Counted from the first letter of the stretch, positions 19,627 to 38,058 are shown. The stretch is 64,000 bases of DNA from a virus (IMGVR_UViG_3300042516_005631:31455-95454), one strand, 5' to 3'. Numbers and translations: made by a program. Notes: generated by a model from the letters alone, not told the origin.

Positions 19627-19678
19627 TTGCTCTTTATTTATACTTTAATATACGAACTTTATTTTAAATGAGGTAGTC

Positions 19679-19999
19679 CTAAGCTGCTACCTCATTACCA
19701 TCGCTCTTAACTTGAGCTGGTCGTCCTCGTTTCAAAGTACCATTTGCTCTTTTACTCTCTAATTCAGCTAATCTCATTTGTCTTACTGAATTTGGATTTA
19801 CAGGTCGTCCTTGGCCAATACCGTTTGCTTTATTCTCTGCTTGTTTAGCTAATCGAATTTGTCTTTCTGAATCAGCTACTACAGGTCGTCCTCGTTTCAA
19901 CTCTCCACTATTTCTTTTTAATTCTAATTCTTTTAATCTTAATTGTCTTACACTGTTTTCATTTACAGGACGTCCTAATTTTTTTACTTCATTTTTCAT
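19679..19999 (-). CDS. Basic DNA-binding protein with four AT-hook-like (R)GRP repeats
   Basis: LGRP, KRGRP, QGRP and KRGRP at about 27-30 aa periodicity, with a repeated S.RQ.RL helix. Confidence 0.7.
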   Translation of the reverse strand: MKNEVKKLGRPVNENSVRQLRLKELELKRNSGELKRGRPVVADSERQIRLAKQAENKANGIGQGRPVNPNSVRQMRLAELESKRANGTLKRGRPAQVKSDGNEVAA

Positions 20000-20075
20000 A
20001 ACTTTTTTCTTTTTAAATTTAACTTATTTTCTTAACTTATTTATACTGTAATATACGAATTACATTTTAATTAAC

Positions 20076-20225
20076 TTAGTCCTGAATTAACATTTTACTA
20101 ATAAATTCTAAACACTCATCTTTATTATTAAAACTAAATCTATTTCCATTTTCATCATTAAAAAACCACCCTACTCTTTCATCAAATTTAACTAATATTC
20201 CTCTATAAACAAACATATTATTCAT
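20076..20225 (-). CDS. 49-aa cassette protein; first 47 codons contain no C (not in track)
   Basis: MNNMFVYRGILVKFDERVGWFFNDENGNRFSFNNKDECLEFISKMLIQD, between the class A motifs at 20250 and 20050. Confidence 0.7.
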   Translation of the reverse strand: MNNMFVYRGILVKFDERVGWFFNDENGNRFSFNNKDECLEFISKMLIQD

Positions 20226-20266
20226 CTTTTATTTTTTTAATTATACATCAATATACGAATTACTTA

Positions 20267-20593
20267 TTAAATTAACTCTTCCTGTTTTAAAGCAAATTGT
20301 TTCAATTCTTCTAGTTTATTATTTAATAATTCAATCATTTCAAGTTCACTTCCTCCAAAATAAAATACTCTACTCTTCATTCCTGGTACTTTCATTTCAA
20401 AACAATTATACAATCCTTTAGCTAATCCTCTTCTAAGCATATCAGCATACTTCTTATTTGCTTCCCCTCCTTTACTCTTTCTATAATAACCAAATACTTC
20501 CTTTTGAATTTGTCCTTCAGTAGCTATAACTGTTAAATCTAAAAATTCTACTATTTGCTTTACACTGTTTTGTTTTCTTCCTTTAAACCCCAT
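20267..20593 (-). CDS. Hypothetical cassette protein (possible winged-helix)
   Basis: 108-aa ORF behind the class A motif at 20620. Confidence 0.6.
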   Translation of the reverse strand: MGFKGRKQNSVKQIVEFLDLTVIATEGQIQKEVFGYYRKSKGGEANKKYADMLRRGLAKGLYNCFEMKVPGMKSRVFYFGGSELEMIELLNNKLEELKQFALKQEELI

Positions 20594-20653
20594 TTTCTTA
20601 TCTTTTTTAATTATACTTCAATATACGAATTATTTATTAATTAATTTAGTCCT

Positions 20654-20760
20654 TTAATTTCTAAATAAAATACTTACAATTTTCTCATCTTCAACATTCA
20701 ATTCTTTCACATCTAAAGTTTGATAAAAGAATGTATCTTCATCTAAGTCATTATCACTTA
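20654..20760 (-). pseudogene. Start-less 3' gene fragment fused to a class A -10 box
   Basis: Open frame SDNDLDEDTFFYQTLDVKELNVEDEKIVSILFRN*, with no in-frame ATG, no A-rich leader, and an in-frame TGA just upstream inside the promoter. Confidence 0.5.
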
Positions 20761-20796
20761 AATATACGATTCAATACTAAATTAATTTACTCCTAA

Positions 20797-20952
20797 TTAA
20801 AACCCAATTAAATCAATTGCTATTTCTCCTGTACTTTTACCATTATAGGTAATCTCATAATTTGGGTCCATCCCGGAAATCATAATATGGGCGATAAGAT
20901 CCCCAATCGTTTTAAACTCTACCTCGTAATAATCACAATTTAAACTATACAT
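20797..20952 (-). CDS. 51-aa protein, paralog of 22847-23002 (not in track)
   Basis: MYSLNCDYYEVEFKTIGDLIAHIMISGMDPNYEITYNGKSTGEIAIDLIGF. Confidence 0.75.
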   Translation of the reverse strand: MYSLNCDYYEVEFKTIGDLIAHIMISGMDPNYEITYNGKSTGEIAIDLIGF

Positions 20953-21015
20953 AATTTATCATTTTTTAATTATACTTTAATATACGAATTATTTATTAAT
21001 TTTACTATTCCTAAC

Positions 21016-21216
21016 TCAACAAAACTTATCTAATAAACCCTTATTCTCTAATTTAATTAAACAATTATTAACATTATAAGGATTCTTTCTTTTATAATTT
21101 TTCAACTCATCATTTACTAAATCCAAAAACTCCTTTTCATCATCCTCACTTACAAAATCAACTTCATCATATTCATTAATAAACAAATTTAACTCTTTAA
21201 TACTTTCAAATTTCAT
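21016..21216 (-). CDS. Acidic 66-aa cassette protein; only 2 C in the CDS
   Basis: Behind the class A motif at 21241; both cytosines are in the single Pro codon. Confidence 0.7.
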   Translation of the reverse strand: MKFESIKELNLFINEYDEVDFVSEDDEKEFLDLVNDELKNYKRKNPYNVNNCLIKLENKGLLDKFC

Positions 21217-21272
21217 ATCTTATCTTTTTAATTATACTGAAATATACGAACTTAATTTTAACTCTGTTATTC

Positions 21273-21467
21273 CTATTTTAAATTAATAATTAAATCAAAT
21301 AATAAATCCTCTAAACTATCATCACCCTTCCAACCTCTCTTATACAAATAATACTCCTTTACATCTTCTAAAGTTTCTAATTTATCAATATCTTTTTTTA
21401 CCTCTAAAGCAAAATCCTCAAAACTCACTTCACATTCAAATTCAAATACTTTTTCTGTTAATGTCAT
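21273..21467 (-). CDS. Acidic 64-aa cassette protein
   Basis: Behind the class A motif at 21492. Confidence 0.7.
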   Translation of the reverse strand: MTLTEKVFEFECEVSFEDFALEVKKDIDKLETLEDVKEYYLYKRGWKGDDSLEDLLFDLIINLK

Positions 21468-21528
21468 CTTTTATTTTTTTAATTATACATCAATATACGA
21501 ATCTTAATTTAATTAACTTAGTCCTGAA

Positions 21529-21732
21529 TTAACTAAATGATTCAATCAAATCAGTTGCAATGTAAACGTCTCTACAAATCAATTCTTCAAATGAAAATAC
21601 CCCTACTGTACCAAATGCTAATTTTACTTGTGCGTCCCATAATTTGTAATTTGTAGTACGCTTTAAACGCTGTTCAATACCTTTTAATTTAATCGTTAAT
21701 TCTAATTTTTCTTTGTTGCTTAATCTGCTCAT
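21529..21732 (-). CDS. 67-aa cassette protein
   Basis: Behind the class A motif at 21755. Confidence 0.65.
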   Translation of the reverse strand: MSRLSNKEKLELTIKLKGIEQRLKRTTNYKLWDAQVKLAFGTVGVFSFEELICRDVYIATDLIESFS

Positions 21733-21772
21733 ATGTCTTTTTTAATTATACCTGAATATACGAATTATATTT

Positions 21773-21886
21773 TTACTCTACTATTCCTAAAATTAAACTT
21801 AATATATATAAAACAATTAAAGGCATTGCAATTGGGAATACTACTTTACCAAATAAATCATTTAAACCCTTGTTTCTCTTTTTCAT
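21773..21886 (-). CDS. 37-aa single-TM peptide (not in track)
   Basis: MKKRNKGLNDLFGKVVFPIAMPLIVLYILSLILGIVE. Confidence 0.5.
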   Translation of the reverse strand: MKKRNKGLNDLFGKVVFPIAMPLIVLYILSLILGIVE

Positions 21887-21889
21887 ATC

Positions 21890-22015
21890 TTAATTCCATC
21901 TAATTACACAATCATCAAATTCTAGTATTTCTAATAGGTTTGAATTTAAAATAATTCCAACAGCCATCTCTTGTTTGATTAATAATCTCAATAATTTAAT
22001 TTCTGCTTTTGTCAT
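21890..22015 (-). CDS. 41-aa cassette protein (not in track)
   Basis: MTKAEIKLLRLLIKQEMAVGIILNSNLLEILEFDDCVIRWN; behind the class A motif at 22040. Confidence 0.55.
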   Translation of the reverse strand: MTKAEIKLLRLLIKQEMAVGIILNSNLLEILEFDDCVIRWN

Positions 22016-22384
22016 AACGTTTCTTTTTAATTATACTTTAATATACGAATCAATTTTTAAAGACACTAGTCCTTAATTAAGCAGTAAGGTGGCCTGCAAT
22101 TTATTGCAAGCTTTTCTTTTATTTTAACAAACGTTCCATCACAGGTCATTCTGATGGGCTTATCCTGGGTATGTTTTGTTGTAGGAGAACATCCAAACTC
22201 ATTCATTTACCAACACGAATACGCTATTTTCCGCCATGTTTTGTAGGTCCTGGGGATATTTCTGTGTCCTAATGCTGTTGCTATCCGTTACCCGTTTCCA
22301 TTATGGAGAATACATTGTATTCAGTAATACATATGTGAAGGTAATGCCTTTTTATTGCTTTTCCAACTATTTTTTTAATTTCTT

Positions 22385-22846
22385 TTACCCCCCTCTCCCC
22401 CAAGGGGGACGGGGGAGTCGCATTTTTTGTATATATTTTTGGAAAGAACGTAAAGGGGACGTGGCGATGTGGGGAAGGGTTAGACCCTAACATTCCCTAA
22501 CACACCCTTAGTGACCTATATTTTCCACATACTATTTTAATTAATTTTCATTTCATTTGATAATTGACGTTTTGTGGTGATTGACATCCTTTCGGTAATT
22601 TCTGTTATTTATTGACGTTTTTCGTTCCGTGACGATTTTCATTGGTAATTTTTATTTTATGATAATTTCCGTTTTGTGGTGATTTTCATTGACGATTTTC
22701 ATTCCCCATGTTGATTTTCATTCCACATAAACTAATCTAAACATTAGTTTAGCTTACATGTTAATTTCTATTCCTTGCGTTTATCTGTTGGTGATTTCTA
22801 TCTTTGACGATTTCCTTGATAATTGACGTTCCTCGTTTTATACACG
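22385..22846. repeat. Iteron-like array (about 17 TG[AGT]YRATT-type units) with a GC hairpin and an AT-rich tract; candidate replication origin
   Basis: tgataatt, tgacgatt, tggtgatt and tggtaatt repeated across 22558-22831. C-run/G-run hairpin at 22389-22417, ccctaa-like x3 at 22485-22510, AT tract at 22533-22558. Confidence 0.5.
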
Positions 22847-23002
22847 TTAAAATCCAATTAATTCAATTAACATTTCCCCTGTTAATTTTCCATTTCTAGT
22901 TATTTCATAATTAGGATCCATTCCTACTTGCATCGCATAATTAATCAATTCATCTATTGAACTAAACTCCTCTACAAAATAATTACAATTTAAACTATAC
23001 AT
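22847..23002 (-). CDS. 51-aa protein, paralog of 20797-20952 (not in track)
   Basis: MYSLNCNYFVEEFSSIDELINYAMQVGMDPNYEITRNGKLTGEMLIELIGF. Confidence 0.75.
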   Translation of the reverse strand: MYSLNCNYFVEEFSSIDELINYAMQVGMDPNYEITRNGKLTGEMLIELIGF

Positions 23003-23054
23003 TTTTTTCTTTTTTTATTTATATCCTGAATATACGATCTCTATTTTATGTTTC

Positions 23055-23255
23055 TTAGTCCTCTAAATCTTCTATAAATTTAGTTTTGGTAAGTATTTCT
23101 GTTCCCCATTCAATGTCATCATCCACTTCCTCACCTTCACCACGTTCTTCTCCTTCTATTATTTTCAATTCTGCTTCTTCTTGTGAATTAGCTTCAACAA
23201 TATATTGTATTGTTTTAGTTGATTTTACTTCTGTTGTAATTCTAAATACTTTCAT
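23055..23255 (-). CDS. Acidic small protein, paralog of 23493-23681
   Basis: Shared FR..TEV....TI.Y..EA.S.EEA...WG.E pattern. Confidence 0.7.
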   Translation of the reverse strand: MKVFRITTEVKSTKTIQYIVEANSQEEAELKIIEGEERGEGEEVDDDIEWGTEILTKTKFIEDLED

Positions 23256-23264
23256 TTTTTTTTC

Positions 23265-23444
23265 TTAATTATATCGTTGCATAATAATATCAGCAAATGC
23301 ATAAAACTGATCAAAATCATCCTCTCTCATTAATGTTACTGCACTTTGAAATTCTAATATAAATGCTTCTCGTTTTGGTGAATTATCAACCAATTCAATA
23401 TCATCTGCTAAGTGTTCAATTTGTTCAAACATTTTTTCTTTCAT
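23265..23444 (-). CDS. 59-aa cassette protein (not in track)
   Basis: Begins MKEKMFEQIEHLADDIELVDNSPKREAF; behind the class A motif at 23473. Confidence 0.6.
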   Translation of the reverse strand: MKEKMFEQIEHLADDIELVDNSPKREAFILEFQSAVTLMREDDFDQFYAFADIIMQRYN

Positions 23445-23492
23445 AACTTTTTTCTCTCTTTATTTATACCGTAATATACGAAATTTATTTTA

Positions 23493-23681
23493 CTAATCTA
23501 TTTCCTCTTCTACAGTAATTACTTCACTTCCCCAATCATATTGTTCATCAAATGTTATTCCATCACATCGGTGTTCTCCGTTTTGTAATTGTTCAAGTGC
23601 TTCCTCTAGTGAATCCGCTTCAATAAGATATTCTATTGTTGCTTTTACTTGTACCTCTGTTTCAAATCTGAATTGTCCCAT
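23493..23681 (-). CDS. Acidic small protein, paralog of 23055-23255
   Basis: Same shared pattern as 23055-23255. Confidence 0.7.
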   Translation of the reverse strand: MGQFRFETEVQVKATIEYLIEADSLEEALEQLQNGEHRCDGITFDEQYDWGSEVITVEEEID

Positions 23682-23682
23682 T

Positions 23683-23979: not shown

Positions 23980-24285
23980 AACTTTTTATTTTTTCTTTTT
24001 TTATTTATACTGTAATATACGAACTTTATTTTAAATCTCTATTTCCCTAAAATTTCATCTAAATTTTCTTTAATATATTCCTTTACATCACTATACTCAA
24101 ATCCATCATTTAACATTTGATCTGCTATTTCATTAATAGCTGTTGTTAATTGTACTGCTGATTCGAATGTTAATAGATTTTCAATTCGTTCTCTTTTTTC
24201 AAAATTCATGTCTTTCTTTTTTATTTACTGAAATATACGAAAGCCCCTTTAATTTGGGGCTTCCTTTACTAAATTTTATTTTAAT

Positions 24286-24633: not shown

Positions 24634-24676
24634 ATCTTTTTCTTTTTTTATTTGAGTGAAATATACGAAAGCCCTT

Positions 24677-24919
24677 TTAAATAAGGGCTTCCTTTTTTGT
24701 TTTCTCTACTATAAAAGAAATTGCTCTTTGGTTTTCTGGTAATGTATTATCTGGTTTAATTCCCAAATCTTCCATTAACCCGTTTATTTTAGCCCAATCT
24801 GATACTGAACGTAGTGTAATGTTATTATCTTTTCCAAATAGACTTTCATCTACTTTAATTTGTAAAAATAATTCTGCTTCTTTTTGTTGAATTACTTCAA
24901 TCATTTGTTTTTTTGTCAT
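24677..24919 (-). CDS. Hypothetical cassette protein
   Basis: Behind the class A motif at 24936. Confidence 0.65.
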   Translation of the reverse strand: MTKKQMIEVIQQKEAELFLQIKVDESLFGKDNNITLRSVSDWAKINGLMEDLGIKPDNTLPENQRAISFIVEKTKKEALI

Positions 24920-25262
24920 AACCTTTATTTTCTTTAATATACGAACTTAAATTGGATAACCTATGTCCCTTGCTCCAAAATCTAGCTCTTCCATTTGAGC
25001 TAGTATTGCTAATGCTTCCTCGTCACTCATTTGTTTAGTTTCATTTTTAACTTTAAATCACTAATTGTCATTTCAACAAAACCAGCAGTCATTATTGGTG
25101 TTTTTCCACTTTGCTCTACTTTTTCAATTTCAGCGATCATATCTGCTTGTACTTTGTCTAATCCATCATTGATTAGAAACTTCTCAAAACCATTTAATTT
25201 GCTCATAACTTTTATTTCTTTTTTTATTTATACTGTAATATACGAAATTTCTATTAAATCTC

Positions 25263-25493
25263 CTATGCCCTCATTACTAAATTTAAGGGCACATTAAAAC
25301 CGTCCGGATCAATTACAGGTACAAATTCACCTTCATCTTCATCCATCACGTATTCAATATCTAACCAATCTGTAACATCACAATCTTCATTATTTATTAC
25401 TAGTTTTGCTGCTTCACCACAATCTGAGAGTATAACACCATAACCACAACAATTTGAATATGTGTAATAACCATGGATTTTTTCTTTTAACAT
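25263..25493 (-). CDS. Hypothetical cassette protein
   Basis: Behind the class A motif at 25518. Confidence 0.65.
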   Translation of the reverse strand: MLKEKIHGYYTYSNCCGYGVILSDCGEAAKLVINNEDCDVTDWLDIEYVMDEDEGEFVPVIDPDGFNVPLNLVMRA

Positions 25494-25534
25494 AACCTTT
25501 ATTTCTTTTTATACTTTAATATACGAAATCTATT

Positions 25535-25912
25535 TTAATCTTCTTCGTCCTCTATTTCAAACGTTTTATTTTTTAATTCTACTTTAAGTGCGTCCAATTC
25601 TTCTTTTAATCGTTCAATAAACGATTCTTCTCCATCATCACCTGCCAATAACCAATCTATACGTTGAGCATATATTTCTGCTTTGCGGAGCATTTCATAG
25701 CCTTTTTTAAATTCCTCTATAATTTCATCTGAGTATTTGTAGTGGTTTAGGTCCTCTGGGTATTTTTCGTACCATTCTCTATCTCTGTAATAGCCTTCTT
25801 CTTTTAATTCACGTGGTGTTTTTGGTCTACCACTTCTAGCTATTTCTTGTTCAATATCATCAGCTATGTATCTGATTTTGTATTGGTTGTAATCAAATGT
25901 TCCTCCACTCAT
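25535..25912 (-). CDS. Conserved phage protein (MSGG.FDY...RIDWLL.GDDGEESF)
   Basis: Motif seen; behind the class A motif at 25932. Confidence 0.7.
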   Translation of the reverse strand: MSGGTFDYNQYKIRYIADDIEQEIARSGRPKTPRELKEEGYYRDREWYEKYPEDLNHYKYSDEIIEEFKKGYEMLRKAEIYAQRIDWLLAGDDGEESFIERLKEELDALKVELKNKTFEIEDEED

Positions 25913-25948
25913 AATTTTCTTAATTTATTTTAATATACGAAATTTATT

Positions 25949-26356
25949 TTAATAACCTTCGTCCTTTACTATCCAACCTTTATCAATCAAATGACCAATA
26001 AACCCTCTAAATTCAGCTATGCCTTGTTCATCTAACATTTCCTCTGCTTCCGGCATACTTTCAGGATTTCCTTCATAAACACCTATAAACCATCTAGGAT
26101 TATCTGAATTATCTTTTTTCCAATCATCTCTATTTGCAGGGCGTTTATCTGTTATTTCAACCCAGGAATCAGCATAAATATCTGTTAAATCTTTTGCTTC
26201 GTCTTTCAATATAACTGTTGCTTCAAAACACCATTCATCTGATTCCCAAGTACAACTTAAACTATTTGTAACATCTCTTGGTTTGATTTCCACTATTGGT
26301 AATGTAGATGTTTCTCTAACATACCATACTCCGTCTACTTGTATTCTATCTTTCAT
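25949..26356 (-). CDS. Cassette protein, paralog of 30000-30389
   Basis: Shared RIQV.GVWYVRET, WES..WCF.ATVI and ITDKRPA.R.DW. Confidence 0.75.
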   Translation of the reverse strand: MKDRIQVDGVWYVRETSTLPIVEIKPRDVTNSLSCTWESDEWCFEATVILKDEAKDLTDIYADSWVEITDKRPANRDDWKKDNSDNPRWFIGVYEGNPESMPEAEEMLDEQGIAEFRGFIGHLIDKGWIVKDEGY

Positions 26357-26392
26357 TTTCTTTTTAATTTATTGGAATATACGAAAAGGGTA

Positions 26393-26776
26393 TTAAATAC
26401 CCTCTTCCTCTAATTCTTCTACTAAAATATCTACTGTTGAACGTCCTAATTTATTTACTAACCAAATACCACCTATAGTTAAACAATAAATATATTCTAT
26501 TCCACTTTCAAACCCATAATCAAACAAATCTGGTACATTTGGAAATGTTTTGAAATGTAAATCTTCTCCTCTATCACGATGATATGCTATTGTCCATAAG
26601 ATTGATTCCCCTAACGCTGAGATATCCCCTAGTTCCATTAGTTTTTCGGTTTTTTCTCTATCGTAGTGGTTAAATAATTTTTTACCTACTCCATCTAAAT
26701 AACCATCAAAATGACAATAAATTGATGTTACTGTTCCGTCTTGATTTTCAATTGCTATTCTACTTCTTGTTGCCAT
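26393..26776 (-). CDS. Conserved phage protein (M.TRS.I...SIYCHFDGY family)
   Basis: MATRSRIA...IYCHFDGYLDGVG...GDISAL...AYHRDRGE...EYIY. Confidence 0.7.
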   Translation of the reverse strand: MATRSRIAIENQDGTVTSIYCHFDGYLDGVGKKLFNHYDREKTEKLMELGDISALGESILWTIAYHRDRGEDLHFKTFPNVPDLFDYGFESGIEYIYCLTIGGIWLVNKLGRSTVDILVEELEEEGI

Positions 26777-26834
26777 AATTTTTCTCTTTATTTATACTGT
26801 AATATACGAAATTTCTTTAATATCTTCTATTCCT

Positions 26835-27216: not shown

Positions 27217-27789
27217 TTAATCTTCTCTTGTAATACTTTCTAAACCAAACAAATAAGCTAATACTGTTTCTTCCATTCCTTCATAACATGTAAGTTCCAT
27301 TGATGTTAATATCTCAGCTACAGTTGATGAATTTTGTACCTTTTCAATAGCTTTCATACAATGGTTAGTGTTAGTTTTGATTGTTTTAATAATATCTTCA
27401 ATTTGATCTACTGTATCGTCGTCAATATCTTGTATTGACATTTTAACATCTTGTAGCATATCAAATTCAAAATCTTCAATATGTCCTTCTAACATATTTA
27501 TAACTCGTTGCTTACCTTCTTTAAAATTAAATTTCATAACTTTCTTATTTTCTTCAAATATACGACCTTCTTTTTGCTGAGAAACTTCCTCTACTTTTGT
27601 AAATTGATGTTCAAAATAACCACCATCTGCTTGTTCACCTGATAATTCATCTCGAATCCATTTTACAAAAACATATTCTTCATCATTCCATCCAATGTAA
27701 TACTCTTCAACTATAGCTGTTGCTCCTTTTTTAGCTGCGTATGTACCTTCTCCTTCAAATTCTACTATGTCTCCTTTTTTAAATTTCAT
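27217..27789 (-). CDS. In-frame fusion of two cassettes: SH3/KOW-like N-terminal part plus a helical part with its own promoter and ATG at 27537
   Basis: Internal class A motif at 27557-27590 and an AAAGTTATG start context inside the ORF. Confidence 0.6.
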   Translation of the reverse strand: MKFKKGDIVEFEGEGTYAAKKGATAIVEEYYIGWNDEEYVFVKWIRDELSGEQADGGYFEHQFTKVEEVSQQKEGRIFEENKKVMKFNFKEGKQRVINMLEGHIEDFEFDMLQDVKMSIQDIDDDTVDQIEDIIKTIKTNTNHCMKAIEKVQNSSTVAEILTSMELTCYEGMEETVLAYLFGLESITRED

Positions 27790-27987
27790 CTTCTAATTTC
27801 TTTTTTATTCCATCCAATATCATATTTACCCCATCATATACTTCATCAATTAGATAAAGGTTAGGATGGTATTCATCTATAAGTTCATTTAATTGAAATA
27901 CAAATGCTTTTAATCGTTCTGGGTTGTTTTCTGCAAATTTATTCATAACTTTTATTTTTTTCTTACTTGAAATATACGAAAGGCTCT

Positions 27988-28749
27988 TTAATTAGAGCCT
28001 TCCTTTTTTACTTGTTTTGAAAATTTATCTAACAATTCCTCTGAATTCATTTTCTCAAATTCAGCATCATATTTTTTATGAAGAATTTCTTTATTTTGAT
28101 ATGTGTTTAATGTAAGCTGAATGTAACTACCTGATTCAAATTTAACTTCAATAACATCAAATGTACCACTATATCTTGAATAGTCACTTTTAACCGTTAT
28201 TGTAGCATTTGGGTACAATTTTGTATACTTTTCAACTGTACTTAGTTTTAAACCGTTTTTCTTTTTATATTCCTCCAACAATTGTTCTTGACGGGAATTG
28301 TATGTTTTTAATTTTTCAAGTAATGTTGCAGGTTTAATGTAGCGATAATTATCTTGAATAGTACTACAATTAACTTTATCTCTTTCAAATTCAATATTGA
28401 ATGTAGAATCAACCAATTCATTTGGTTTTGAATATGTATCAAATTGTTTTCCTTTCAAAAAAATACCCCCACCAATTGCTTTATATGTTATTTCAGCTCT
28501 AAAATCAGTTTTGTTATAGGAATAACCTATTGTTGTTTCATTAGTAACAGTTTCTACTTTAAATGTATTAACAAAATCAACATCTTTAACAAAACCATTG
28601 TTGATAAGCAATTGCTCGCGTTGTTTGTTTATACTCTCATTTGTATTAGCAATATCTTCTCTAATTTTGATAAATTCTGCTATTTTTTGTTCTTGTTCAG
28701 GTGTAAATAATATACCATCAAATAAACTTAATTGAATTCCTTCTTTCAT
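27988..28749 (-). CDS. Hypothetical protein with N-terminal QLSLF clamp-binding-like motif
   Basis: MKEGIQLSLFD; behind the class A motif at 28775. Confidence 0.65.
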   Translation of the reverse strand: MKEGIQLSLFDGILFTPEQEQKIAEFIKIREDIANTNESINKQREQLLINNGFVKDVDFVNTFKVETVTNETTIGYSYNKTDFRAEITYKAIGGGIFLKGKQFDTYSKPNELVDSTFNIEFERDKVNCSTIQDNYRYIKPATLLEKLKTYNSRQEQLLEEYKKKNGLKLSTVEKYTKLYPNATITVKSDYSRYSGTFDVIEVKFESGSYIQLTLNTYQNKEILHKKYDAEFEKMNSEELLDKFSKQVKKEGSN

Positions 28750-29004
28750 AACTTTCTTTTTTTATTTATACTTTAATATACGAAATCTATTTTACTTTTC
28801 TTTGTCCTTCATTAATTCTTCTCCAAAATCAGAATTTTTACACCACAATTCCCACATTGCATTAAACCATGCTGGGCCATCTTCTTCATATGTTAGTCCT
28901 TCAACAGTTGCATGTGTGTTTCTAACCAAAAACGCTGTCCAATTTAATAACCAAGGTTCCATTTTCTTTTAATTTATACTTTAATATACGAAATCTCTTT
29001 TAAA

Positions 29005-29391
29005 TTAACTATTCCTTTTTGCTAATATCTTTTGATATTCTTCTTCACATAAAGTTGTATACCAACCTATATCTGTTCTCAATTGTCCTGGTTTGCCTGT
29101 TACCTCGCATGTTTGGTAGCTTAAATCTTCTGCTTTGCTTATACGCGCATGCATTTCATCTGATGCTTCATTGATATAGAAGCGTAGACCACCAAATTTT
29201 TCCTTTATTTGGCATACTTCTTTGTTCCAACCCAATTCAATCAAATCAGTGATAAGGTCTTTTATTAGTTGATACCAACCTGAATCGCATTCAAAGAATC
29301 CTGCATTCGTTATTGGTTCTCTATTTGAGTACATGCCATTTTCCAACCCACCTATGGATTGTAGAAAATCGTTCATTTCTTGTTCTGTCAT
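29005..29391 (-). CDS. Conserved phage protein (QIKEKFGGLRFY...CEVTG family)
   Basis: Motif seen. Confidence 0.7.
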   Translation of the reverse strand: MTEQEMNDFLQSIGGLENGMYSNREPITNAGFFECDSGWYQLIKDLITDLIELGWNKEVCQIKEKFGGLRFYINEASDEMHARISKAEDLSYQTCEVTGKPGQLRTDIGWYTTLCEEEYQKILAKRNS

Positions 29392-29949: not shown

Positions 29950-29999
29950 TTTTTTAATTTAATTTAATATACGAAAGCTCTCTTACGAGAACTAGTCCT

Positions 30000-30747: not shown

Positions 30748-30797
30748 TCTCTTAATTTTCTCAAATATACGAAATTTTTACTTTAAAACCTATTCCT

Positions 30798-31771: not shown

Positions 31772-31832
31772 TTTCTTTTTTTTAATTTATGTTAATATAC
31801 GAAATTTCTTTTGCTCATAAACGTCCTTTTTT

Positions 31833-31868
31833 AAAAAACCTGCCGTATGTTCGTATCCACACGGCAGG
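31833..31868 (-). terminator. Intrinsic terminator after the tRNA-like RNA
   Basis: Stem cctgccgt/acggcagg with a T-run on the minus strand. Confidence 0.7.
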
Positions 31869-31894
31869 AAAAGAAACGGTTATGAAGCGTTTTG

Positions 31895-32001: not shown

Positions 32002-32010
32002 ATTTTTTGC

Positions 32011-32814: not shown

Positions 32815-32890
32815 AACTTTTCTTTTTTTAATTTAACTTTCTTTTCTTAATTTACTTTAATATACGAAAACTTTTTTAAATATCCAAATT

Positions 32891-33226: not shown

Positions 33227-33231
33227 AACTT

Positions 33232-33459: not shown

Positions 33460-33520
33460 AACCTTTATTTTTTTCTTACTTGAAATATACGAAAGCCCTC
33501 TTACGAGGGCTATTCCTCTT

Positions 33521-34282
33521 TTAAAGAGCTAATGCGTATTGATCAGCTAAGCTAAATAATTGCTGATTTAAAATAATATCAGTGTTGAAATTAGATACAT
33601 CAGCAGTTAGATTTTCTTGTACTCTGTTGAATACTGTCCATAAATCATTGCTTTCATCTTCAATTCGATTAACTGAAAGTAAATCATTTATAGTAATGTC
33701 AGATATTTGATCTTCGCTATATCTTAATTGAGCGGCTTTATGAGCAAATTCTCTTGCTTCCTCTACAGTCATATTTTTGTTTTGTAATATACCAAAACTC
33801 TCTAATACTTTATCTGTTTTGTTATTTACTGATTGAATAAATCGCTGTAAATCTCTAGCATTAATTTCGGTATGTTTGATTTGCGTGCTTTCTCCGTGTT
33901 GATCAAAAGCAATTGCTCCATTGGAACATACCTGTCTATATATTCCTAAATCCATTGTTAATGGTTTATTTCCGTTACAACTATTTGATATAGTAAGAGA
34001 TGATACAGCTTCTGTTTTACCTAGTTTATTTTTTAAACTGAAATCAGGATGATGTAATTGAACATAATTTGATGTTATTTTACGATTTTTTCCTCTTTGT
34101 TCAGCTACTCCTTTTAATAGCCAACCATCGTTCTGTAACATTTCAAGTACTTCTAATGTTGGAATATAGAATGGTTTTTGTTTGATTCGTTGAACATTTT
34201 TAATGTTGTTTGAATCTAATGTGTTAGCAAATGCTACTGCTTTGTTGATGTTGTTATCAACAGGGATAAATTTGTACTTCAT
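33521..34282 (-). CDS. DUF932/DUF945-family protein (second paralog)
   Basis: YIPT.EV...GW, LTISNSCNG, GIYRQVCSNGAI and LWTVFNRVQE. Confidence 0.8.
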   Translation of the reverse strand: MKYKFIPVDNNINKAVAFANTLDSNNIKNVQRIKQKPFYIPTLEVLEMLQNDGWLLKGVAEQRGKNRKITSNYVQLHHPDFSLKNKLGKTEAVSSLTISNSCNGNKPLTMDLGIYRQVCSNGAIAFDQHGESTQIKHTEINARDLQRFIQSVNNKTDKVLESFGILQNKNMTVEEAREFAHKAAQLRYSEDQISDITINDLLSVNRIEDESNDLWTVFNRVQENLTADVSNFNTDIILNQQLFSLADQYALAL

Positions 34283-34341
34283 AGTTTTTCTTTTTTAATT
34301 ATACTTTAATATACGAAAGGGAGATTACTCTCCCTATTCCT

Positions 34342-35145
34342 TTAATCAGCTTTTTCCATCTCGTATGCGTAATGTACTCCTTCGTTATAGATTGAAAAGA
34401 ATACTTTAAAGTCCTTATCGCAATCTCTATTTTTTTCAAAAAACAACGAACGCTCTAATCCATCTTTACTTCTTTCTACTTTACAAAATGCTTCCATCAT
34501 ATGTTTCAATCTGTTTGATCCTGCAAAATCATCTGATTTTGTTACTTGTTGAATATTGATGAATGATGTATAGTAACCGTTTTTATTTTTACCTTTTTTA
34601 GTATCGTCTTGTAACTTCAAAAACCATGATTCAGCTTGTTTTGATGTACCTCCGTTTTGATCTTTATACATATCTAATACTTCTGCAATTGAATCTATTC
34701 CTATTACATCATATCCTAAGTTAAATACATATTCAATCGTTTCCTTTACATTGCTCATATGATCTTTCAAAAACAATGTTTGAACACAACTAAATGAAGG
34801 CATTCTTCTACAGTATTTGTAATGTCCTATTTGATCCATTTCTCCTTGTATCAACAAACATTTCAATCCTTGCATAGTAAATTTAGATAACATATCCATT
34901 ACTATAGTTGATTTACCTGAACCTGGTCCGCCTGCAATCATCATTGACGTACCTGGCATTAAACCGCCTTCAGTAGATAAAATAACATCTATTTCTGTAT
35001 TTGTTTTTAATGGTCTAAATAACGATTCATTGAATTGTAAATCACTACCTCTAAATAGTTTTACTTCATTTGGATTAAACTCTACAATTGGAGCTTGTTT
35101 TGCTGGTCTTCCTCTTCGCTTCATTTCTCTTTTTTCAATTTTCAT
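34342..35145 (-). CDS. RadA/Sms-like RecA-fold ATPase with N-terminal AT-hook; no Zn finger or Lon-like domain
   Basis: GGLMPG, Walker A GGPGSGKST, Walker B IGIDSI, QVTKSDDFAGSNRLKHM, KNR; N-terminal KRRGRPAK. Confidence 0.8.
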   Translation of the reverse strand: MKIEKREMKRRGRPAKQAPIVEFNPNEVKLFRGSDLQFNESLFRPLKTNTEIDVILSTEGGLMPGTSMMIAGGPGSGKSTIVMDMLSKFTMQGLKCLLIQGEMDQIGHYKYCRRMPSFSCVQTLFLKDHMSNVKETIEYVFNLGYDVIGIDSIAEVLDMYKDQNGGTSKQAESWFLKLQDDTKKGKNKNGYYTSFINIQQVTKSDDFAGSNRLKHMMEAFCKVERSKDGLERSLFFEKNRDCDKDFKVFFSIYNEGVHYAYEMEKAD

Positions 35146-35209
35146 AACTTTTCTTTTTTTAATTTATACTTTAATATACGAATTTACTTTAATATCTTCT
35201 ATTCCTCTG

Positions 35210-35431
35210 TTAATGATTTTTAACATTACGTTCCCAATATACATAACCAGGAGTAGTATCTTCAATTGGGGGATTTGCTTTTGCGTTGAAATATATTCCT
35301 ATTGATAGTATTGTATTCAACCAAAACCATATAGCATATTTACCTGTATGTCCTTTAATATACCATCTAACAAACCAAATTGCTAATCCAATTACAAATA
35401 AAGATGATATTAATTTAAATATTGCTTTCAT
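35210..35431 (-). CDS. Two-TM membrane protein
   Basis: Behind the class A motif at 35450. Confidence 0.6.
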   Translation of the reverse strand: MKAIFKLISSLFVIGLAIWFVRWYIKGHTGKYAIWFWLNTILSIGIYFNAKANPPIEDTTPGYVYWERNVKNH

Positions 35432-35483
35432 TTTCTCAATTTATACTTTAATATACGAACTTTCTTTTAAATATCTTTGTCCT

Positions 35484-35690
35484 TTACAAAAAATATTTTT
35501 CTAATTTAAATGAAGTCCCTCTTTGAATTGTTTTAACTTGAGAGTCGTTTGTTAATGGTTTAGCTTCATCTAAATCATCACTAAATGCTGGGTAACCGCC
35601 TTTCAATCCACAGAATACTTGAGCGTATTCGTTTAGAACTATGAATTGAATTTCTTTTTGTTTGAGTTTTTTATCTAATACTATTTTCAT
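35484..35690 (-). CDS. Hypothetical protein
   Basis: Behind the class A motif at 35709. Confidence 0.6.
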   Translation of the reverse strand: MKIVLDKKLKQKEIQFIVLNEYAQVFCGLKGGYPAFSDDLDEAKPLTNDSQVKTIQRGTSFKLEKYFL

Positions 35691-35725
35691 TCCCTTTTAT
35701 TTGACGGGAATATACGAAAGAGATT

Positions 35726-35944
35726 TTAAATAACCTCTTCCTCTATAATTTCTGCTTCTTGAACAGTTTCAACAAACATAAAATGTATTTCATTTCTCAA
35801 TACGTGATCAACTTTGTATAGAGTTTCCATACATTCTTTAACCATATCTAACTCAATTTTACCACTTGCATGAGTAAATGATGCTAAAGGTATTTTTTTA
35901 TGTATAATATAATATTTGTCGTTATGTTTGTATAGTTGTTTCAT
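35726..35944 (-). CDS. Hypothetical protein
   Basis: ATGA coupling to the upstream gene. Confidence 0.6.
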   Translation of the reverse strand: MKQLYKHNDKYYIIHKKIPLASFTHASGKIELDMVKECMETLYKVDHVLRNEIHFMFVETVQEAEIIEEEVI

Positions 35945-36177
35945 TTAATGTTATATTGTTTTTTAAATGATGCTATAAATGACTTTCCAATCCCAATATC
36001 AACCACATCACACCCATCTGGTATGAGTGGCTTTCGTTTTGAAGGGTTCAATATTGTGTCAACTTCAGATTCAGTAACCAACATATAGTATTTTTTTCCA
36101 GTTGGTTTTTTATATACTACCACTATTGGTATTTTTTCCTCTGATGGTCTGCCTTTACCCTCGTGTGTTATTTTCAT
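35941..36177 (-). CDS. Hypothetical protein with N-terminal KGRP
   Basis: ATGA coupling on both sides. Confidence 0.6.
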   Translation of the reverse strand: MKITHEGKGRPSEEKIPIVVVYKKPTGKKYYMLVTESEVDTILNPSKRKPLIPDGCDVVDIGIGKSFIASFKKQYNIK

Positions 36178-36767
36178 TTTAAGTATTTTTTACGTAAAAT
36201 TAAATCGTAGTAATTGATTGTTTCCTCTCCTTCTTTTGAATGTCTAGTCCAAATGTTTGGAAATTCTGTTTTACATTGCTCAATACGCTCTGCTTTTGAT
36301 TTTATTTTGTCAGTGTAATATTCATAGTATATCCATGACTCCCAATAATGATCTTGTTCAGGTGCATTCCATGTAATTGCTATTTGATATCCAAAAAACA
36401 CAAATGACCAAACTGGAGCCCATTCAAAACGAATATCTTTATCTGTCCATTTTGTTTTCCATCCCAATTCAACAAAGTCAATACCAATACGTTTGTTTTT
36501 TGGGTAGGTATATCTCATTGCGCGAGCATATGCAGTGTCATAATCGGGTACTGTTTGGGGTGATCCATATTTTGCATTGCGTTCATTAAAATCTTCTACA
36601 CGTTTTATCTGGCGTAATGCATCTTCGTGAGCTAATGCCGGAGTTGCTTTAACCCATTTACGTGGGTAGAAGTATGGTGTACCAACAGCTGTTTTCCCAA
36701 TATAAAACCTTGGTTTAAGTGGTTTGAATGGAGAGAAATATGCTTTTAAATATCTTAAATTTTTCAT
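36174..36767 (-). CDS. Hypothetical Trp-rich protein
   Basis: Behind the class A motif at 36778. Confidence 0.65.
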   Translation of the reverse strand: MKNLRYLKAYFSPFKPLKPRFYIGKTAVGTPYFYPRKWVKATPALAHEDALRQIKRVEDFNERNAKYGSPQTVPDYDTAYARAMRYTYPKNKRIGIDFVELGWKTKWTDKDIRFEWAPVWSFVFFGYQIAITWNAPEQDHYWESWIYYEYYTDKIKSKAERIEQCKTEFPNIWTRHSKEGEETINYYDLILRKKYLK

Positions 36768-36811
36768 TTTTTCTTTTAATATACAAAACCTTTTTTAAAT
36801 AACCTAGTCCT

Positions 36812-37396
36812 TTAATCCCACCAAGATTCAATATTCTCCTCTAGTATTTTAAATAATAGTTTACGAGAGCGTTCTTGATTTTCATGTGCTACAAACATTG
36901 CAATTCTACGTTTGTCATTTGAATCCATAATATCGTCTTTTTCTAGATATTTGGATAATGCATCTCCACCATTTAGTACTTTTTTGTATTGTCTAGGATA
37001 TTTGGCAAAGTATTCATCGTAACTTTCTGAATGTGTGGTGTCTTTTATTTCAAACCATTGTTTGGTCTCGTCTGTTGGAACAAATTCATATTCAACATCG
37101 TGGTAGTCTAGATGTTCAGTTCCATATAGATCTTCTATTTGGATTTGAATTAAACGAGCACATAAAAACATTTTTTCAGCATCACGTTCTGCTTCAGTAT
37201 GGAAACCATTTTTATGAATATGTTGTGCTTGAAATTCTAGTTTGGTTTTAAGTATTTTGTAAATATAGTGTTGATCCCAATCTCGATCTTCCCATATTAC
37301 AGGAAACCATTTCCATAGGTTTTTAACACCATTAGCAAAGTTTTTATGATAATATCTACCATCAAATTTCCACCACAATCTAATTCTTTCGATCAT
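36812..37396 (-). CDS. Conserved phage protein (W.P.IW.DRDWD...WWD family)
   Basis: Motif seen. Confidence 0.7.
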   Translation of the reverse strand: MIERIRLWWKFDGRYYHKNFANGVKNLWKWFPVIWEDRDWDQHYIYKILKTKLEFQAQHIHKNGFHTEAERDAEKMFLCARLIQIQIEDLYGTEHLDYHDVEYEFVPTDETKQWFEIKDTTHSESYDEYFAKYPRQYKKVLNGGDALSKYLEKDDIMDSNDKRRIAMFVAHENQERSRKLLFKILEENIESWWD

Positions 37397-37716
37397 ATTT
37401 TAAATAATTCGTAATTGCTATTTTGTGTTTTGAATTTAATATAGTCTTCTTTTTGCTCTACAATTTCAGTTACATCTGTGGTTTGCCAAACAAAGAACTG
37501 ATTGAATGGAGACATTAATAATGATCTACCTATTGCTGGTTCTGTATGTTTTTCTTTGAAACGTCCTTCTTCATTGAATTCCAACCACATTACATCTTCT
37601 GATTGTTTTGTTAAGCCATCACGTTCTCTTACGAGCCTATATTTTGGTTGAACAGTTATAACTTCAGCTAAATCTTCTAGATTAACTGGTATTTTAATTT
37701 GATTCAGTTTGCTCAT
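37393..37716 (-). CDS. Conserved phage protein (W.TT.VTEI...FKT.NS.Y)
   Basis: Motif seen. Confidence 0.65.
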   Translation of the reverse strand: MSKLNQIKIPVNLEDLAEVITVQPKYRLVRERDGLTKQSEDVMWLEFNEEGRFKEKHTEPAIGRSLLMSPFNQFFVWQTTDVTEIVEQKEDYIKFKTQNSNYELFKI

Positions 37717-38008
37717 TTGTTGTATATGTTAAATTGCTAAATTTCAATCCCCACATTAATCCAATCATTTGCATTTGACGCTCAGCCATTTTAGCATAGT
37801 ATCTGAGATTCTTCATAAGATATTTCTTGCCCCATTTTTGCCATTCATCATATTGAGTTTCAGTCATAGTCCATTCTTGATACCAAGCATCTTTACGATC
37901 CTTTACATCATCATATGTCACATTATGACCAGCAATTTCAAACATTTTGTTGATCATATCAACAACCATTTGTTTTTCTTTTTCGTCTCTACTTAATCTC
38001 TTTGCCAT
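37694..38008 (-). CDS. Hypothetical protein
   Basis: Start moved to MAKRLS, just downstream of the class A motif at 38024. Confidence 0.6.
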   Translation of the reverse strand: MAKRLSRDEKEKQMVVDMINKMFEIAGHNVTYDDVKDRKDAWYQEWTMTETQYDEWQKWGKKYLMKNLRYYAKMAERQMQMIGLMWGLKFSNLTYTTNEQTESN

Positions 38009-38058
38009 CTTATTTTTTCTTTTAATATACAAAACTTTTTTTAAATATCCTATTCCTT

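What the first reader, a model, noticed from the sequence alone, without database searches (positions are those of the whole stretch)
19647..38057. 35-cassette gene array, each headed by AGGA-N20-TTCGTATATT with an invariant spacer: candidate new phage transcription-takeover system
Seen: 35 co-oriented copies in 18.4 kb, each with exactly 20 nt between an (A/G)GGA box and TTCGTATATT, and nearly all 10-50 nt upstream of a start codon. Elsewhere in the window the same -10-like box pairs with TTG(G) at N15 (class B; canonical 17-bp spacing). In class A the upstream element is therefore different and sits 5 bp (half a turn) further out, where sigma region 4 would not normally read it. The AGGA box often lies inside the previous CDS and dictates its last residues (-ED, -QD, -EEEGI, -KKEALI), which indicates strong constraint. 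Known analogy: T4 middle promoters keep the host -10 and replace -35 with a MotA box. Inference: a phage activator or alternative sigma reads AGGA at about -40. Candidates in this window are the AT-hook protein (19679), the TraR-type zinc finger (45534) and the HTH/dead-HNH protein (44885).
Basis: partly seen in the sequence, partly recalled or inferred. Interest (0 to 1): 0.85.

Follow-up and report, generated by a model that had tools for sequence, protein, structure and literature searches.

The report
Promoter-cassette array in Flavobacterium-type phage
An uncultured freshwater phage related to a Flavobacterium phage puts about 35 copies of one compact promoter in front of small accessory genes. 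The promoter keeps the normal downstream box but swaps the normal upstream box for an AGGA box 5 bp further out, and what reads that box is unknown.

Summary
The core 10-mer (TTCG-TATATT) occurs 33 times in the window against 0.36 expected. There are 37 co-oriented copies (one mismatch allowed) at 19647-38033, and 34-35 carry (A/G)GG(A) exactly 20 nt upstream.

The repeated unit is about 45 nt: AGGA, an A-tract box, the core, and a GTATAA box at the likely start site. It lies a median of 24 nt before a start codon.

The same unit heads similar arrays in at least 10 related IMG/VR phage contigs. The spacer is exactly 20 nt in 171 of 191 AGGA boxes found near cores.

The closest cultured relative, Flavobacterium phage immuto, drives its syntenic array with a canonical Bacteroidota promoter (TTG, 20 nt, then the same box). 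This phage also uses that canonical form elsewhere ("class B"). The AGGA class is therefore a derived promoter without the usual -33 box.

Its reader was not identified. I found no MotA, AsiA, T7-type RNA polymerase or sigma region-4 homologue. The one phage sigma is gp55-like, is shared with immuto, and fits a separate late box.

This scan found the same kind of array earlier in two related genomes, and both were judged PeSL-like. My verdict is a new variant of a known kind. The "takeover system" reading is plausible but unproven.

The parts
19636..38057 (-). Whole array: 35 class A promoter units plus one class B unit, heading about 60 small ORFs, all on the minus strand
19636..19680 (-). 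class A unit (core 19647-19656), the last of the array
20039..20083 (-). class A unit; heads the AT-hook gene 19679-19999
20239..20283 (-). class A unit
20609..20653 (-). class A unit
20750..20794 (-). class A unit, 1 mismatch in core
20968..21012 (-). class A unit
21230..21274 (-). class A unit
21481..21525 (-). class A unit
21744..21788 (-). class A unit
22029..22073 (-). class A unit
23018..23062 (-). class A unit, 1 mismatch in core
23462..23506 (-). class A unit
24003..24047 (-). class A unit (GGGA)
24221..24265 (-). class A unit with a GC hairpin (about -12 kcal/mol) fitted into the 20-nt spacer
24649..24693 (-). class A unit with spacer hairpin
24925..24969 (-). class A unit (GGGA)
25226..25270 (-). 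class A-like unit (GGGC in place of AGGA)
25507..25551 (-). class A unit
25921..25965 (-). class A unit
26365..26409 (-). class A unit with spacer hairpin
26790..26834 (-). class A unit
27546..27590 (-). class A unit, 1 mismatch, inside ORF 27217-27789; the site is conserved in relative G001
27960..28004 (-). class A unit with spacer hairpin
28764..28808 (-). class A unit
28972..29016 (-). class A unit
29955..29999 (-). class A unit with spacer hairpin
30753..30797 (-). class A unit
31783..31827 (-). class A unit; a strong terminator hairpin lies just upstream at 31839-31868
32848..32887 (-). class B unit inside the array (TTGG-N15-core); heads the DUF932 gene 32011-32814
33473..33517 (-). class A unit with spacer hairpin
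34297..34341 (-). class A unit with spacer hairpin
35162..35206 (-). class A unit
35439..35483 (-). class A unit
35698..35742 (-). class A unit with spacer hairpin; the orthologous gene in G001 has a class B promoter
36767..36811 (-). class A unit (core begins TTTG)
38013..38057 (-). class A unit (core begins TTTG), the first of the array
38782..38810 (-). class B promoter heading the metallophosphoesterase gene 38059-38775
44329..44357 (-). class B promoter heading the SWIM zinc-finger gene 43860-44306
17839..17867 (-). class B promoter downstream of the array
18975..19003 (-). class B promoter downstream of the array
14043..14771 (-). Phage sigma factor: gp55-like N-terminal domain plus a C-terminal helix-turn-helix domain. 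It is the probable reader of the late box, not of AGGA.
19679..19999 (-). 106-aa protein with four GRP (AT-hook-like) repeats; found in all four AGGA-clade genomes checked and not in immuto

Best explanation
The block is an array of about 35 compact promoter cassettes, some with a built-in terminator. Each drives one to three small accessory genes of host-takeover type, as PeSL/PmSL cassettes do in T4-type phages.

The promoter is a derived form of the phage's own host-type promoter. It keeps the -7/-10-like core that the canonical class B promoters use, presumably read by domain 2 of the host primary sigma. It has lost the -33 TTG box. In its place it has an AGGA box at about -40..-37, an A-tract at about -27..-22 and a conserved start region.

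Inferred mechanism: host RNA polymerase binds the core, and an accessory factor docked at AGGA supplies the upstream contact. The factor is most likely a small early phage protein, formally like MotA at T4 middle promoters. This would make the array a separately timed, delayed-early class.

Shown: the motif, its geometry, its conservation, its position before genes, its derivation from a canonical promoter, and three promoter classes.

Inferred: the start site, the sigma used, and the existence and origin of the AGGA reader.

My sub-odds are 0.85 that these are promoter cassettes and about 0.45 that AGGA needs a dedicated factor other than host sigma region 4.
For: 1. Strong excess, strict co-orientation and a fixed place before start codons.
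2. Information is confined to four boxes and the flanks carry about 0 bits, so the copies are not recent duplications.
3. The spacing is invariant: 171 of 191 AGGA boxes near cores lie at exactly N20, one at N21 and none at N19, across 10 sources.
4. The same core pairs with TTGG at the canonical distance in class B, here and across the complete relative G001.
5. The syntenic array of the cultured Flavobacterium phage immuto has TTG-N20 before the same box and a similar leader. This geometry fits the published Flavobacterium sigma-A signals, -33 TTG and -7 TAnnTTTG at -12..-5 (PMC9723704).
6. Terminator hairpins are built into the 20-nt spacer without moving AGGA or the A-tract, in 8 of 37 copies.
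7. AGGA and TTGG can stand side by side in 7 hybrid promoters, and 2 of 37 orthologous cassettes switch class between phages. AGGA is therefore a separate module that can stand in for the -33 box.
8. The composite motif is no more frequent than its reversed control in 151 genomes of the genus of a Flavobacterium alvei genome (G006). It is therefore not a host promoter class in that exact form.
9. Homology blocks between relatives end at the units: 50% of ends lie within 40 nt of a core against 16% at random, and only 6 of 58 blocks span a unit.
Against: There are no transcription start data. The only RNA run held just short contigs of a related strain.

No candidate reader has any positive evidence. 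No MotA, AsiA or region-4 sigma homologue was detected, although such factors are small and fast-evolving.

Arrays of small genes are usually immediate-early, and immediate-early promoters must work with unmodified host polymerase. The extreme conservation of the core would also fit very strong host-only promoters.

Rare class A/B switches at orthologous genes suggest the two classes may not differ much in timing.

The total information in the unit, about 35 bits, exceeds what recognition needs. Part of the conservation may come from gene conversion between copies.
Confidence: 0.55

Rival explanations
1. Class A units are immediate-early promoters read by the unmodified host holoenzyme alone. 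The extended core (TTCG in front of the -7-like box) would make the -33 box dispensable. AGGA and the A-tract would act as auxiliary contacts, for example for the alpha subunit or through DNA shape, or they would merely tune strength.
For: The array holds small ORFan genes, as in the early regions of other large phages. The core is identical to that of class B, which has a canonical -33 box. Orthologous cassettes can switch between classes A and B. No activator was detected. A weak remnant of the -33 box (T at -19, G at -17/-16) persists in many class A copies.
Against: GG at -23/-22 is the most conserved part outside the core, in 148 of 164 exact cores across the clade. Known alpha-subunit (UP) sites are A/T-rich (my knowledge). 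No comparable host promoters were found in 151 genomes of the Flavobacterium alvei genus. The immuto array shows that the canonical form works, so the replacement needs a reason.
Confidence: 0.28
2. AGGA is conserved mainly for reasons other than promoter recognition. It could be part of the recombination and gene-conversion substrate that shuffles cassettes (PeSL-type), the foot of a terminator stem, or an RNA-level signal at the 3' end of the upstream message.
For: The unit holds more information than recognition needs. Homology blocks end at the units. Metagenome contigs join different copies at the core, although short-k assembly can also create such joins. In hairpin copies the stem extends into GGAA and the TTC of the core.
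Against: 29 of 37 copies have no hairpin yet keep AGGA. There is no compensatory change between position -20 (A or C) and its would-be partner (my reading). Recombination alone would conserve a contiguous stretch, not separated boxes around a free 9-nt and 4-nt spacer. The distance to stop codons varies from -28 to -8, while the distance to the core is fixed.
Confidence: 0.1
3. The phage's own sigma (243 aa, 14043-14771), which has a C-terminal helix-turn-helix domain in addition to a gp55-like domain, reads class A as a two-part promoter.
For: It is the only sigma-like protein found, and it has two domains. Whole sigma factors align over 157-184 of its residues.
Against: It is conserved at 45% identity in immuto, which has no AGGA promoters. 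Its best structural match is the T4 late sigma gp55 (Z 10.5, rmsd 2.9 A over 97 residues). A separate single-box late motif (ATATTTAT) precedes structural genes in this phage, in G001 and in immuto, with no upstream element. The gene lies downstream of the array behind class B promoters.
Confidence: 0.05
4. Class A mimics a host ECF-type sigma promoter, with GGAA as the -35 box and CGT as the -10 box.
For: The core contains CGTATA. Two Flavobacterium psychrophilum ECF-class promoters that I read in the supplement of PMC9723704 carry CGTATA or CGTTTA at -10.
Against: Those two host promoters have an AAC box 16 nt before CGT. Here GGA(A/C)T ends 20 nt before CGT and there is no AAC at the expected place. 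Class B pairs the same core with a primary-sigma -33 box. There is no excess of the composite in Flavobacterium genomes.
Confidence: 0.02

Closest known systems
PeSL and PmSL cassettes (promoter-early / promoter-middle stem-loops) of T4-type phages (Arbiol et al. 2010, PMC2839356; Comeau et al. 2014, PMC4122927)
   Same: Both are many near-identical composite promoter(-terminator) motifs in front of small variable ORFs within plastic regions. Gene gain, loss and replacement between relatives is bounded by the motifs. The PmSL subtype of phage nt-1 even replaces the -35 box with an activator (Mot) box.
   Different: The host phylum and promoter grammar differ (Bacteroidota type, not sigma-70 TTGACA-N17-TATAAT). 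Here the stem-loop is optional (8 of 37) and lies inside the promoter spacer rather than upstream. The upstream box is AGGA at about -40, not a Mot box at -30. Density is higher: 35 units in 18.4 kb, often overlapping the previous gene's last codons.
T4 middle promoters with MotA/AsiA sigma appropriation (Hinton 2010, PMC2988021; PMC6755090)
   Same: The host-type downstream box is kept, and the upstream box is replaced by a different short element at a fixed distance. Canonical and late (gp55-type) classes coexist in one phage.
   Different: No MotA or AsiA homologue was found. The box position is about 10 bp further upstream. Dependence on a phage protein is untested.
[quoted passage not shown]
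   Same: It is a syntenic array of small genes between the HNH-like/DksA-like genes and the T5orf172, phosphohydrolase and sigma genes. Each unit has the same -7-like box, a similar conserved leader and occasional spacer hairpins.
   Different: immuto uses a canonical TTG box 20 nt before the -7-like box and has no AGGA box.
Host-takeover module of Bacillus phage SPO1 (from my own knowledge, not checked here)
   Same: It is a dense cluster of small early genes, each group with its own strong promoter.
   Different: The SPO1 promoters are canonical host sigma-A promoters, and no alternative upstream box is involved.

Membership tests
PeSL-type promoter cassettes | Many copies of one composite promoter motif heading small ORFs in a plastic genome region | tested here: met
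   35 units in 18.4 kb heading ORFs of 41-267 aa, most without a family match
PeSL-type promoter cassettes | A stem-loop/terminator joined to the promoter | tested here: inconclusive
   Only 8 of 37 units have a stable hairpin (dG of -5 or lower), and it lies within the promoter spacer
PeSL-type promoter cassettes | Insertions, deletions and replacements between relatives are bounded by the motifs | tested here: met
   50% of homology-block ends lie within 40 nt of a core against 16% at random (maximum 28%). Only 6 of 58 blocks span a unit. Gene order against G001 is colinear, with cassette presence/absence. Gene boundaries coincide with the motifs, so part of this is expected anyway.
PeSL-type promoter cassettes | Promoter of the host primary-sigma (-35/-10) type | tested here: not met
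   The canonical upstream box is absent from class A, although the downstream box is of host type. This is closer to the PmSL subtype.
MotA/AsiA-type middle promoters | Host-type -10 box kept, -35 box replaced by an activator box at a fixed distance | tested here: met
   In form only: AGGA at exactly N20 from the core, but at about -40 rather than -30
MotA/AsiA-type middle promoters | Phage encodes MotA and AsiA homologues | tested here: inconclusive
   No match to Pfam MotCF or AsiA at E of 1 or better in 5 genomes, 2 of them near-complete. Divergent analogues would be missed.
MotA/AsiA-type middle promoters | Activity depends on early phage proteins | not testable with these tools
   This needs start-site mapping with and without a protein-synthesis block, or in vitro transcription
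Bacteroidota primary-sigma promoter (-33 TTTG / -7 TAnnTTTG; PMC9723704) | -7 box TAnnTTTG | tested here: inconclusive
   The core gives TA..TT but not the final TG. immuto has TAnnTTTA.
Bacteroidota primary-sigma promoter (-33 TTTG / -7 TAnnTTTG; PMC9723704) | -33 TTG about 19-21 nt upstream of the -7 box | tested here: not met
   Class A has (A/C)TA(G/A) at that place. Class B and immuto meet this feature.
ECF sigma promoter | AAC-type -35 box 16-17 nt before a CGT -10 box | tested here: not met
   CGT is present, but there is no AAC and the spacing is 20 nt. Two host examples in the supplement of PMC9723704 show AAC-N16-CGT.
T4 gp55-type late sigma (for the 243-aa protein at 14043-14771) | Sigma domain-2 fold closest to gp55 | tested here: met
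   Model pLDDT 89.9. Best match 7d7d_F (gp55): Z 10.5, rmsd 2.9 A, 97 residues aligned. 17 of 80 family members hit Pfam Sigma70_r2 (best E 8e-8). The family profile hits gp55 weakly (E 0.31) over residues 10-159.
T4 gp55-type late sigma (for the 243-aa protein at 14043-14771) | Single-box late promoters before structural genes | tested here: met
   The ATATTTAT box occurs 18 times on the coding strand of this contig, and 26 against 9 on the two strands of G001. It is also present in immuto, with no upstream element. That this protein reads the box is inferred.

The most novel reading that the evidence does not exclude
The AGGA box may be the docking site of an undescribed sigma-appropriation-like system of Bacteroidota phages. 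Because near-complete relatives carry the DpdA/QueC/D/E pathway, and their cultured relative replaces every G by a 7-deazaguanine derivative (PMC10516641), the two G's of the box would be modified bases in phage DNA. A reader specific for modified GG could then mark phage promoters as 'self' and time a whole gene class independently of the host -33 signal.
Probability: 0.12. Interest if true: 0.85.

Novelty: new variant of a known kind. Interest (0 to 1): 0.5.

Why it matters
Almost nothing is known about how large lytic phages of Bacteroidota schedule transcription. This clade appears widespread in freshwater metagenomes. Its sigma-like protein has more than 8000 close database relatives, most from ENA and JGI records, and the array itself was found in lake and freshwater runs from 14 studies.

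The clade shows three sequence-defined promoter classes in one genome. One of them is a derived class in which a short G-containing box at about -40 has taken the place of the host -33 box in about 35 promoters. If a phage factor reads that box, it would be the first MotA-like device outside the T4 and proteobacterial world.

The array also gives a clean natural set of over 200 promoter variants for dissecting Bacteroidota promoter grammar, and a further example of promoter-bounded gene shuffling. If the host polymerase reads the box unaided, the finding is an ordinary but unusually regular early-promoter array.

Tried and rejected
1. Direct start-site evidence. One metatranscriptome run (X24) held the region only as short Logan contigs of a related strain (3-8% different). 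One contig bridges a promoter and others stop near units. Contigs cannot show starts or strand, so nothing can be concluded.
2. Joints between different motif copies in DNA contigs could be real cassette variants or short-k assembly artefacts at the repeat. I did not use them as evidence.
3. A scan of bacterial genome contigs for the gapped motif gave only single scattered matches in unrelated taxa. It revealed no host regulon or prophage and gave no information on the host.
4. The composite pattern in 151 genomes of the genus of a Flavobacterium alvei genome gave 87 matches, many of them one conserved coding sequence. This is no more than the reversed control: by my count of the first 44 genomes, 25 against 36.
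5. Searches with T7-type RNA polymerase, Sigma70_r4_2, MotCF and AsiA found no matches. The RNA polymerase search had no positive control.
6. PHROGs and Pfam gave no informative hits on the clade-specific small proteins.
7. The sigma family profile gave no significant sequence match to solved structures; the best were E 0.14 and 0.31.
8. Rfam found no known RNA family in 19000-39000.
9. An E. coli-type promoter scan found fewer sites than shuffles did (90 against 109), as expected for a host that does not use sigma-70-type promoters.
10. I tried reading the second box (GTATAA) as the true -10 box, and TTCG as a -33 box for a downstream promoter. Neither gives a partner box at the required distance (my reading).
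11. Megablast against cultured phages gave no nucleotide-level relative.

Full report
OBSERVATION

The core 10-mer (TTCG followed by TATATT) occurs 33 times in the 64-kb window against 0.36 expected. Of these, 31 lie on the minus strand between 19647 and 35718. The gapped pattern (A/G)GGA-N20-core has 29 exact matches against none in 100 shuffles.

With one mismatch allowed in the core there are 37 minus-strand sites from 19647 to 38033. Their upstream boxes break down as follows:
- 34 carry (A/G)GGA exactly 20 nt upstream.
- One (25237) has GGGC.
- One (32859) has the other upstream box, class B.
- One (33786) lies inside an ORF and looks like chance.

The whole contig (95,454 bp, an IMG/VR record estimated 59% complete; the window is its 31455-95454) has no further copies in its first 31 kb. 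All of its genes are on the minus strand.

ANATOMY

Positions are counted from the first T of the core. A position-by-position count shows information only in four boxes, with the flanks at about zero:
- AGGA at -24..-21, followed by (A/C)TAG.
- TTTAAAA at -11..-6, present in 32-36 of 37 copies.
- The core at 0..9.
- GTATAA(A/T)T at 13..20, a direct repeat of the GTATAT part of the core one helical turn downstream, followed by an A-rich leader.

The next ATG lies a median of 24 nt after the core, and 10-50 nt after it in 33 of 37 copies.

The stop codon of the preceding ORF falls between -28 and -8 in nearly all units. It is often the TAG/TAA right after AGGA or the TAA inside the A-tract box, so the upstream half of the unit is frequently coding.

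Eight units carry a GC-rich hairpin fitted exactly between AGGA and the core, with the A-tract kept in the loop.

RELATIVES

The gapped motif found arrays in many IMG/VR contigs. Some carry 10-39 copies each: L012, and the contigs I call G001 to G005. They are about 70-80% identical to the window in patches.

G001 is 173,789 bp and rated complete. Its copies form one array that runs across the contig ends.

Of 164 unique exact cores pooled from these sources, 148 have GG at -23/-22, and position -21 is A in 98% of those.

Over ten sources, 171 of the 191 AGGA boxes found near cores lie exactly 20 nt from the core, one at 21 nt and none at 19 nt. The loci were retrieved with the AGGA pattern, which biases loci that have only one or two copies. 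Within the long arrays, however, I searched again with the core alone.

The DNA occurs in lake and freshwater metagenomes from 14 studies.

THE CANONICAL COUNTERPART

Elsewhere in this phage and all over G001 the same core is preceded by TTGG-N15. This puts TTG 20 nt before the TATATT part. That is the geometry published for Flavobacterium primary-sigma promoters: -33 TTG and a -7 box TAnnTTTG at -12..-5 (PMC9723704).

The closest cultured relative by protein is Flavobacterium phage vB_FspM_immuto (about 45% identity on the baseplate wedge protein). It has a syntenic small-gene array between the same landmark genes. Every unit there reads TTG, 20 nt, then TAT(A/C)TTTAGG and a conserved leader, again with occasional spacer hairpins and with no AGGA.

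The AGGA class is thus a derived version of an ordinary host-type phage promoter. The -33 box has decayed to T-A-(G/A), which doubles as a stop codon, and a new box has appeared 5 bp further out.

AGGA behaves as a separate module:
- Seven promoters in the clade carry AGGA directly followed by A and TTGG.
- Among 37 cassette families shared by at least two phages, two have class A in some phages and class B in others. One of them is the gene at 35484-35690.

A THIRD CLASS AND THE PHAGE SIGMA

Structural genes are preceded by a single box, ATATTTAT, often with A on both sides. It occurs 18 times on the coding strand of this contig and 26 against 9 on the two strands of G001. It is also present in immuto and has no upstream element.

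A 243-aa protein at 14043-14771 gave a weak Sigma70_r2 signal that is conserved in four genomes. The evidence on it is:
- Its family has 1960 clusters at 50% identity.
- 17 of 80 members hit Sigma70_r2 (best E 8e-8).
- The family profile aligns weakly with T4 gp55 over residues 10-159 (E 0.31).
- A confident model (pLDDT 89.9) matches gp55 best: 7d7d_F, Z 10.5, rmsd 2.9 A over 97 residues. Many sigma domain-2 structures follow.
- It has an extra C-terminal helix-turn-helix domain (residues 148-238), which matches sigma domain 4 and winged-helix proteins only weakly (Z 5-6).
- It is conserved in immuto at 45% identity.
- It lies downstream of class B promoters.

I therefore assign it to the late box, by inference. 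The phage also has a T4-like clamp loader.

The programme thus looks T4-like in outline: host-type promoters, a class with a replaced upstream box, and a gp55-type late class.

WHO READS AGGA?

This is not resolved. No T7-type polymerase, sigma region 4, MotA C-terminal domain or AsiA was found in five genomes.

The composite motif is not over-represented in 151 genomes of the genus of a Flavobacterium alvei genome. It does not fit the ECF geometry seen in two F. psychrophilum promoters, which have AAC 16 nt before CGT.

Only 11 ORFs are shared by G001, G002 and G003 and undetected in immuto, with G000 homologues wherever its contig covers the region. The small ones are:
- The four-fold GRP (AT-hook-like) protein at 19679-19999. 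As a minor-groove binder of A/T DNA it is more likely to touch the A-tract than GG.
- An 80-aa protein at 17319-17561.
- A 134-aa protein at 45832-46236.

A SWIM zinc-finger protein at 43860-44306 lies directly behind a class B promoter just upstream of the array in both G000 and G001, and is also present in G002.

None of these has positive evidence.

MECHANISM AND ODDS

It is very likely (about 0.85) that these are promoters. They are of the PeSL/PmSL kind: regulatory cassettes that also bound gene gain and loss. Homology blocks between relatives end at the units (50% of ends within 40 nt against 16% at random), and only 6 of 58 blocks span one.

My odds for how the upstream contact is made are:
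- About 0.45: AGGA is the docking site of a dedicated accessory factor, which makes the array a separately timed class.
- About 0.3: the host holoenzyme reads the unit unaided.
- The remainder: conservation through recombination or gene conversion, a terminator-foot or RNA role, the phage sigma, or an ECF sigma.

A CAVEAT FOR EXPERIMENTS

G001 and G002 encode DpdA, QueC, QueD and QueE, and G001 also encodes FolE. In immuto every G is replaced by a formylated preQ1 derivative (PMC10516641). The G's of AGGA, TTGG and TTCG are therefore probably modified in phage DNA. Plasmid reporters may not behave like the phage.

COMPARISON AND NOVELTY

The closest described systems are these:
- PeSLs of T4-type phages (PMC2839356).
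- PmSLs of phage nt-1, in which a Mot box replaces the -35 box (PMC4122927).
- T4 middle promoters (PMC2988021).

What is new here is the host phylum and its promoter grammar, the box and its position, and the placement of the terminator inside the spacer. A further new point is the direct evidence from a cultured relative that the class derives from a canonical promoter.

This scan found the same kind of array earlier in two related genomes (e1-5667590 and e1-5702859). Both follow-ups also judged it PeSL-like, and my analysis was done independently and agrees.

I rate it a new variant of a known kind, of moderate interest. It would rise sharply if a reader of AGGA were found.

Noticed in passing
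window 14043-14771 (-): A phage sigma factor with a gp55-like N-terminal domain and an additional C-terminal helix-turn-helix domain that T4 gp55 lacks. Its family is very large (1960 clusters at 50% identity), and the 120 close relatives listed (78% identity or more) are all unnamed or 'hypothetical protein'. It could be a fused gp55 plus domain-4-like (or gp33-like) late sigma.
   Followed up: partly
window 18545, 18273, 14034, 8066, 510 and others (-): A late-type single-box promoter, ATATTTAT, lies 10-25 nt before structural genes. It is shared with relative G001 and with phage immuto.
   Followed up: partly
   Followed up: no
G001:116008-131581 and G002:112139-117831 (relatives; the region is not in this contig): DpdA, QueC, QueD and QueE homologues, plus FolE in G001, indicate 7-deazaguanine DNA modification in the clade, as was measured for phage immuto.
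   Followed up: partly
window 19679-19999 (-): A 106-aa protein made of four GRP-type (AT-hook-like) repeats. It is the last gene of the array, conserved in all four AGGA-clade genomes checked and absent from immuto. It may be a nucleoid or A/T-DNA binder.
   Followed up: partly
window 43860-44306 (-): A 148-aa protein with a C-terminal SWIM-type zinc finger (CxC...CxH). It is the first gene behind a class B promoter just upstream of the tRNA cluster and the array. It is present in G001 and G002 and not detected in immuto.
   Followed up: partly
window 60701-61615 and 59824-60255 (-): T4-like clamp-loader subunits: a strong AAA+/DNA_pol3_delta2 match for the large subunit and only a weak Phage_clamp_A match (E 0.045) for the small one. 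They are highly conserved in the clade (92% and 88% with G001) and not detected in immuto, which suggests a swapped replication module.
   Followed up: no
window 38812-40887 (-): A 691-aa ORF with no Pfam or PHROG match and no homologue in G001 or immuto, inserted between the tRNA cluster and the array.
   Followed up: no
window 41309-43734 (-): A cluster of six tRNA genes (Ala, Ser, Asp, Thr, Gln, Glu) with unassigned GC-rich spacers between them.
   Followed up: no
window 19976, 21489, 24938, 25932, 27938-27961, 35709: Lake metagenome DNA contigs join different promoter copies to one another. These are either cassette-content variants in the population or assembly artefacts at the repeat.
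   Followed up: no
window 16848-17300 (-): A T5orf172 (GIY-YIG-related) domain protein, syntenic with immuto gp123.
   Followed up: no
window 46347-56763 (-): A run of glycosyltransferase, methyltransferase and sugar-epimerase genes, partly shared with immuto. Part of it (48289-52372) is absent from G001.
   Followed up: no
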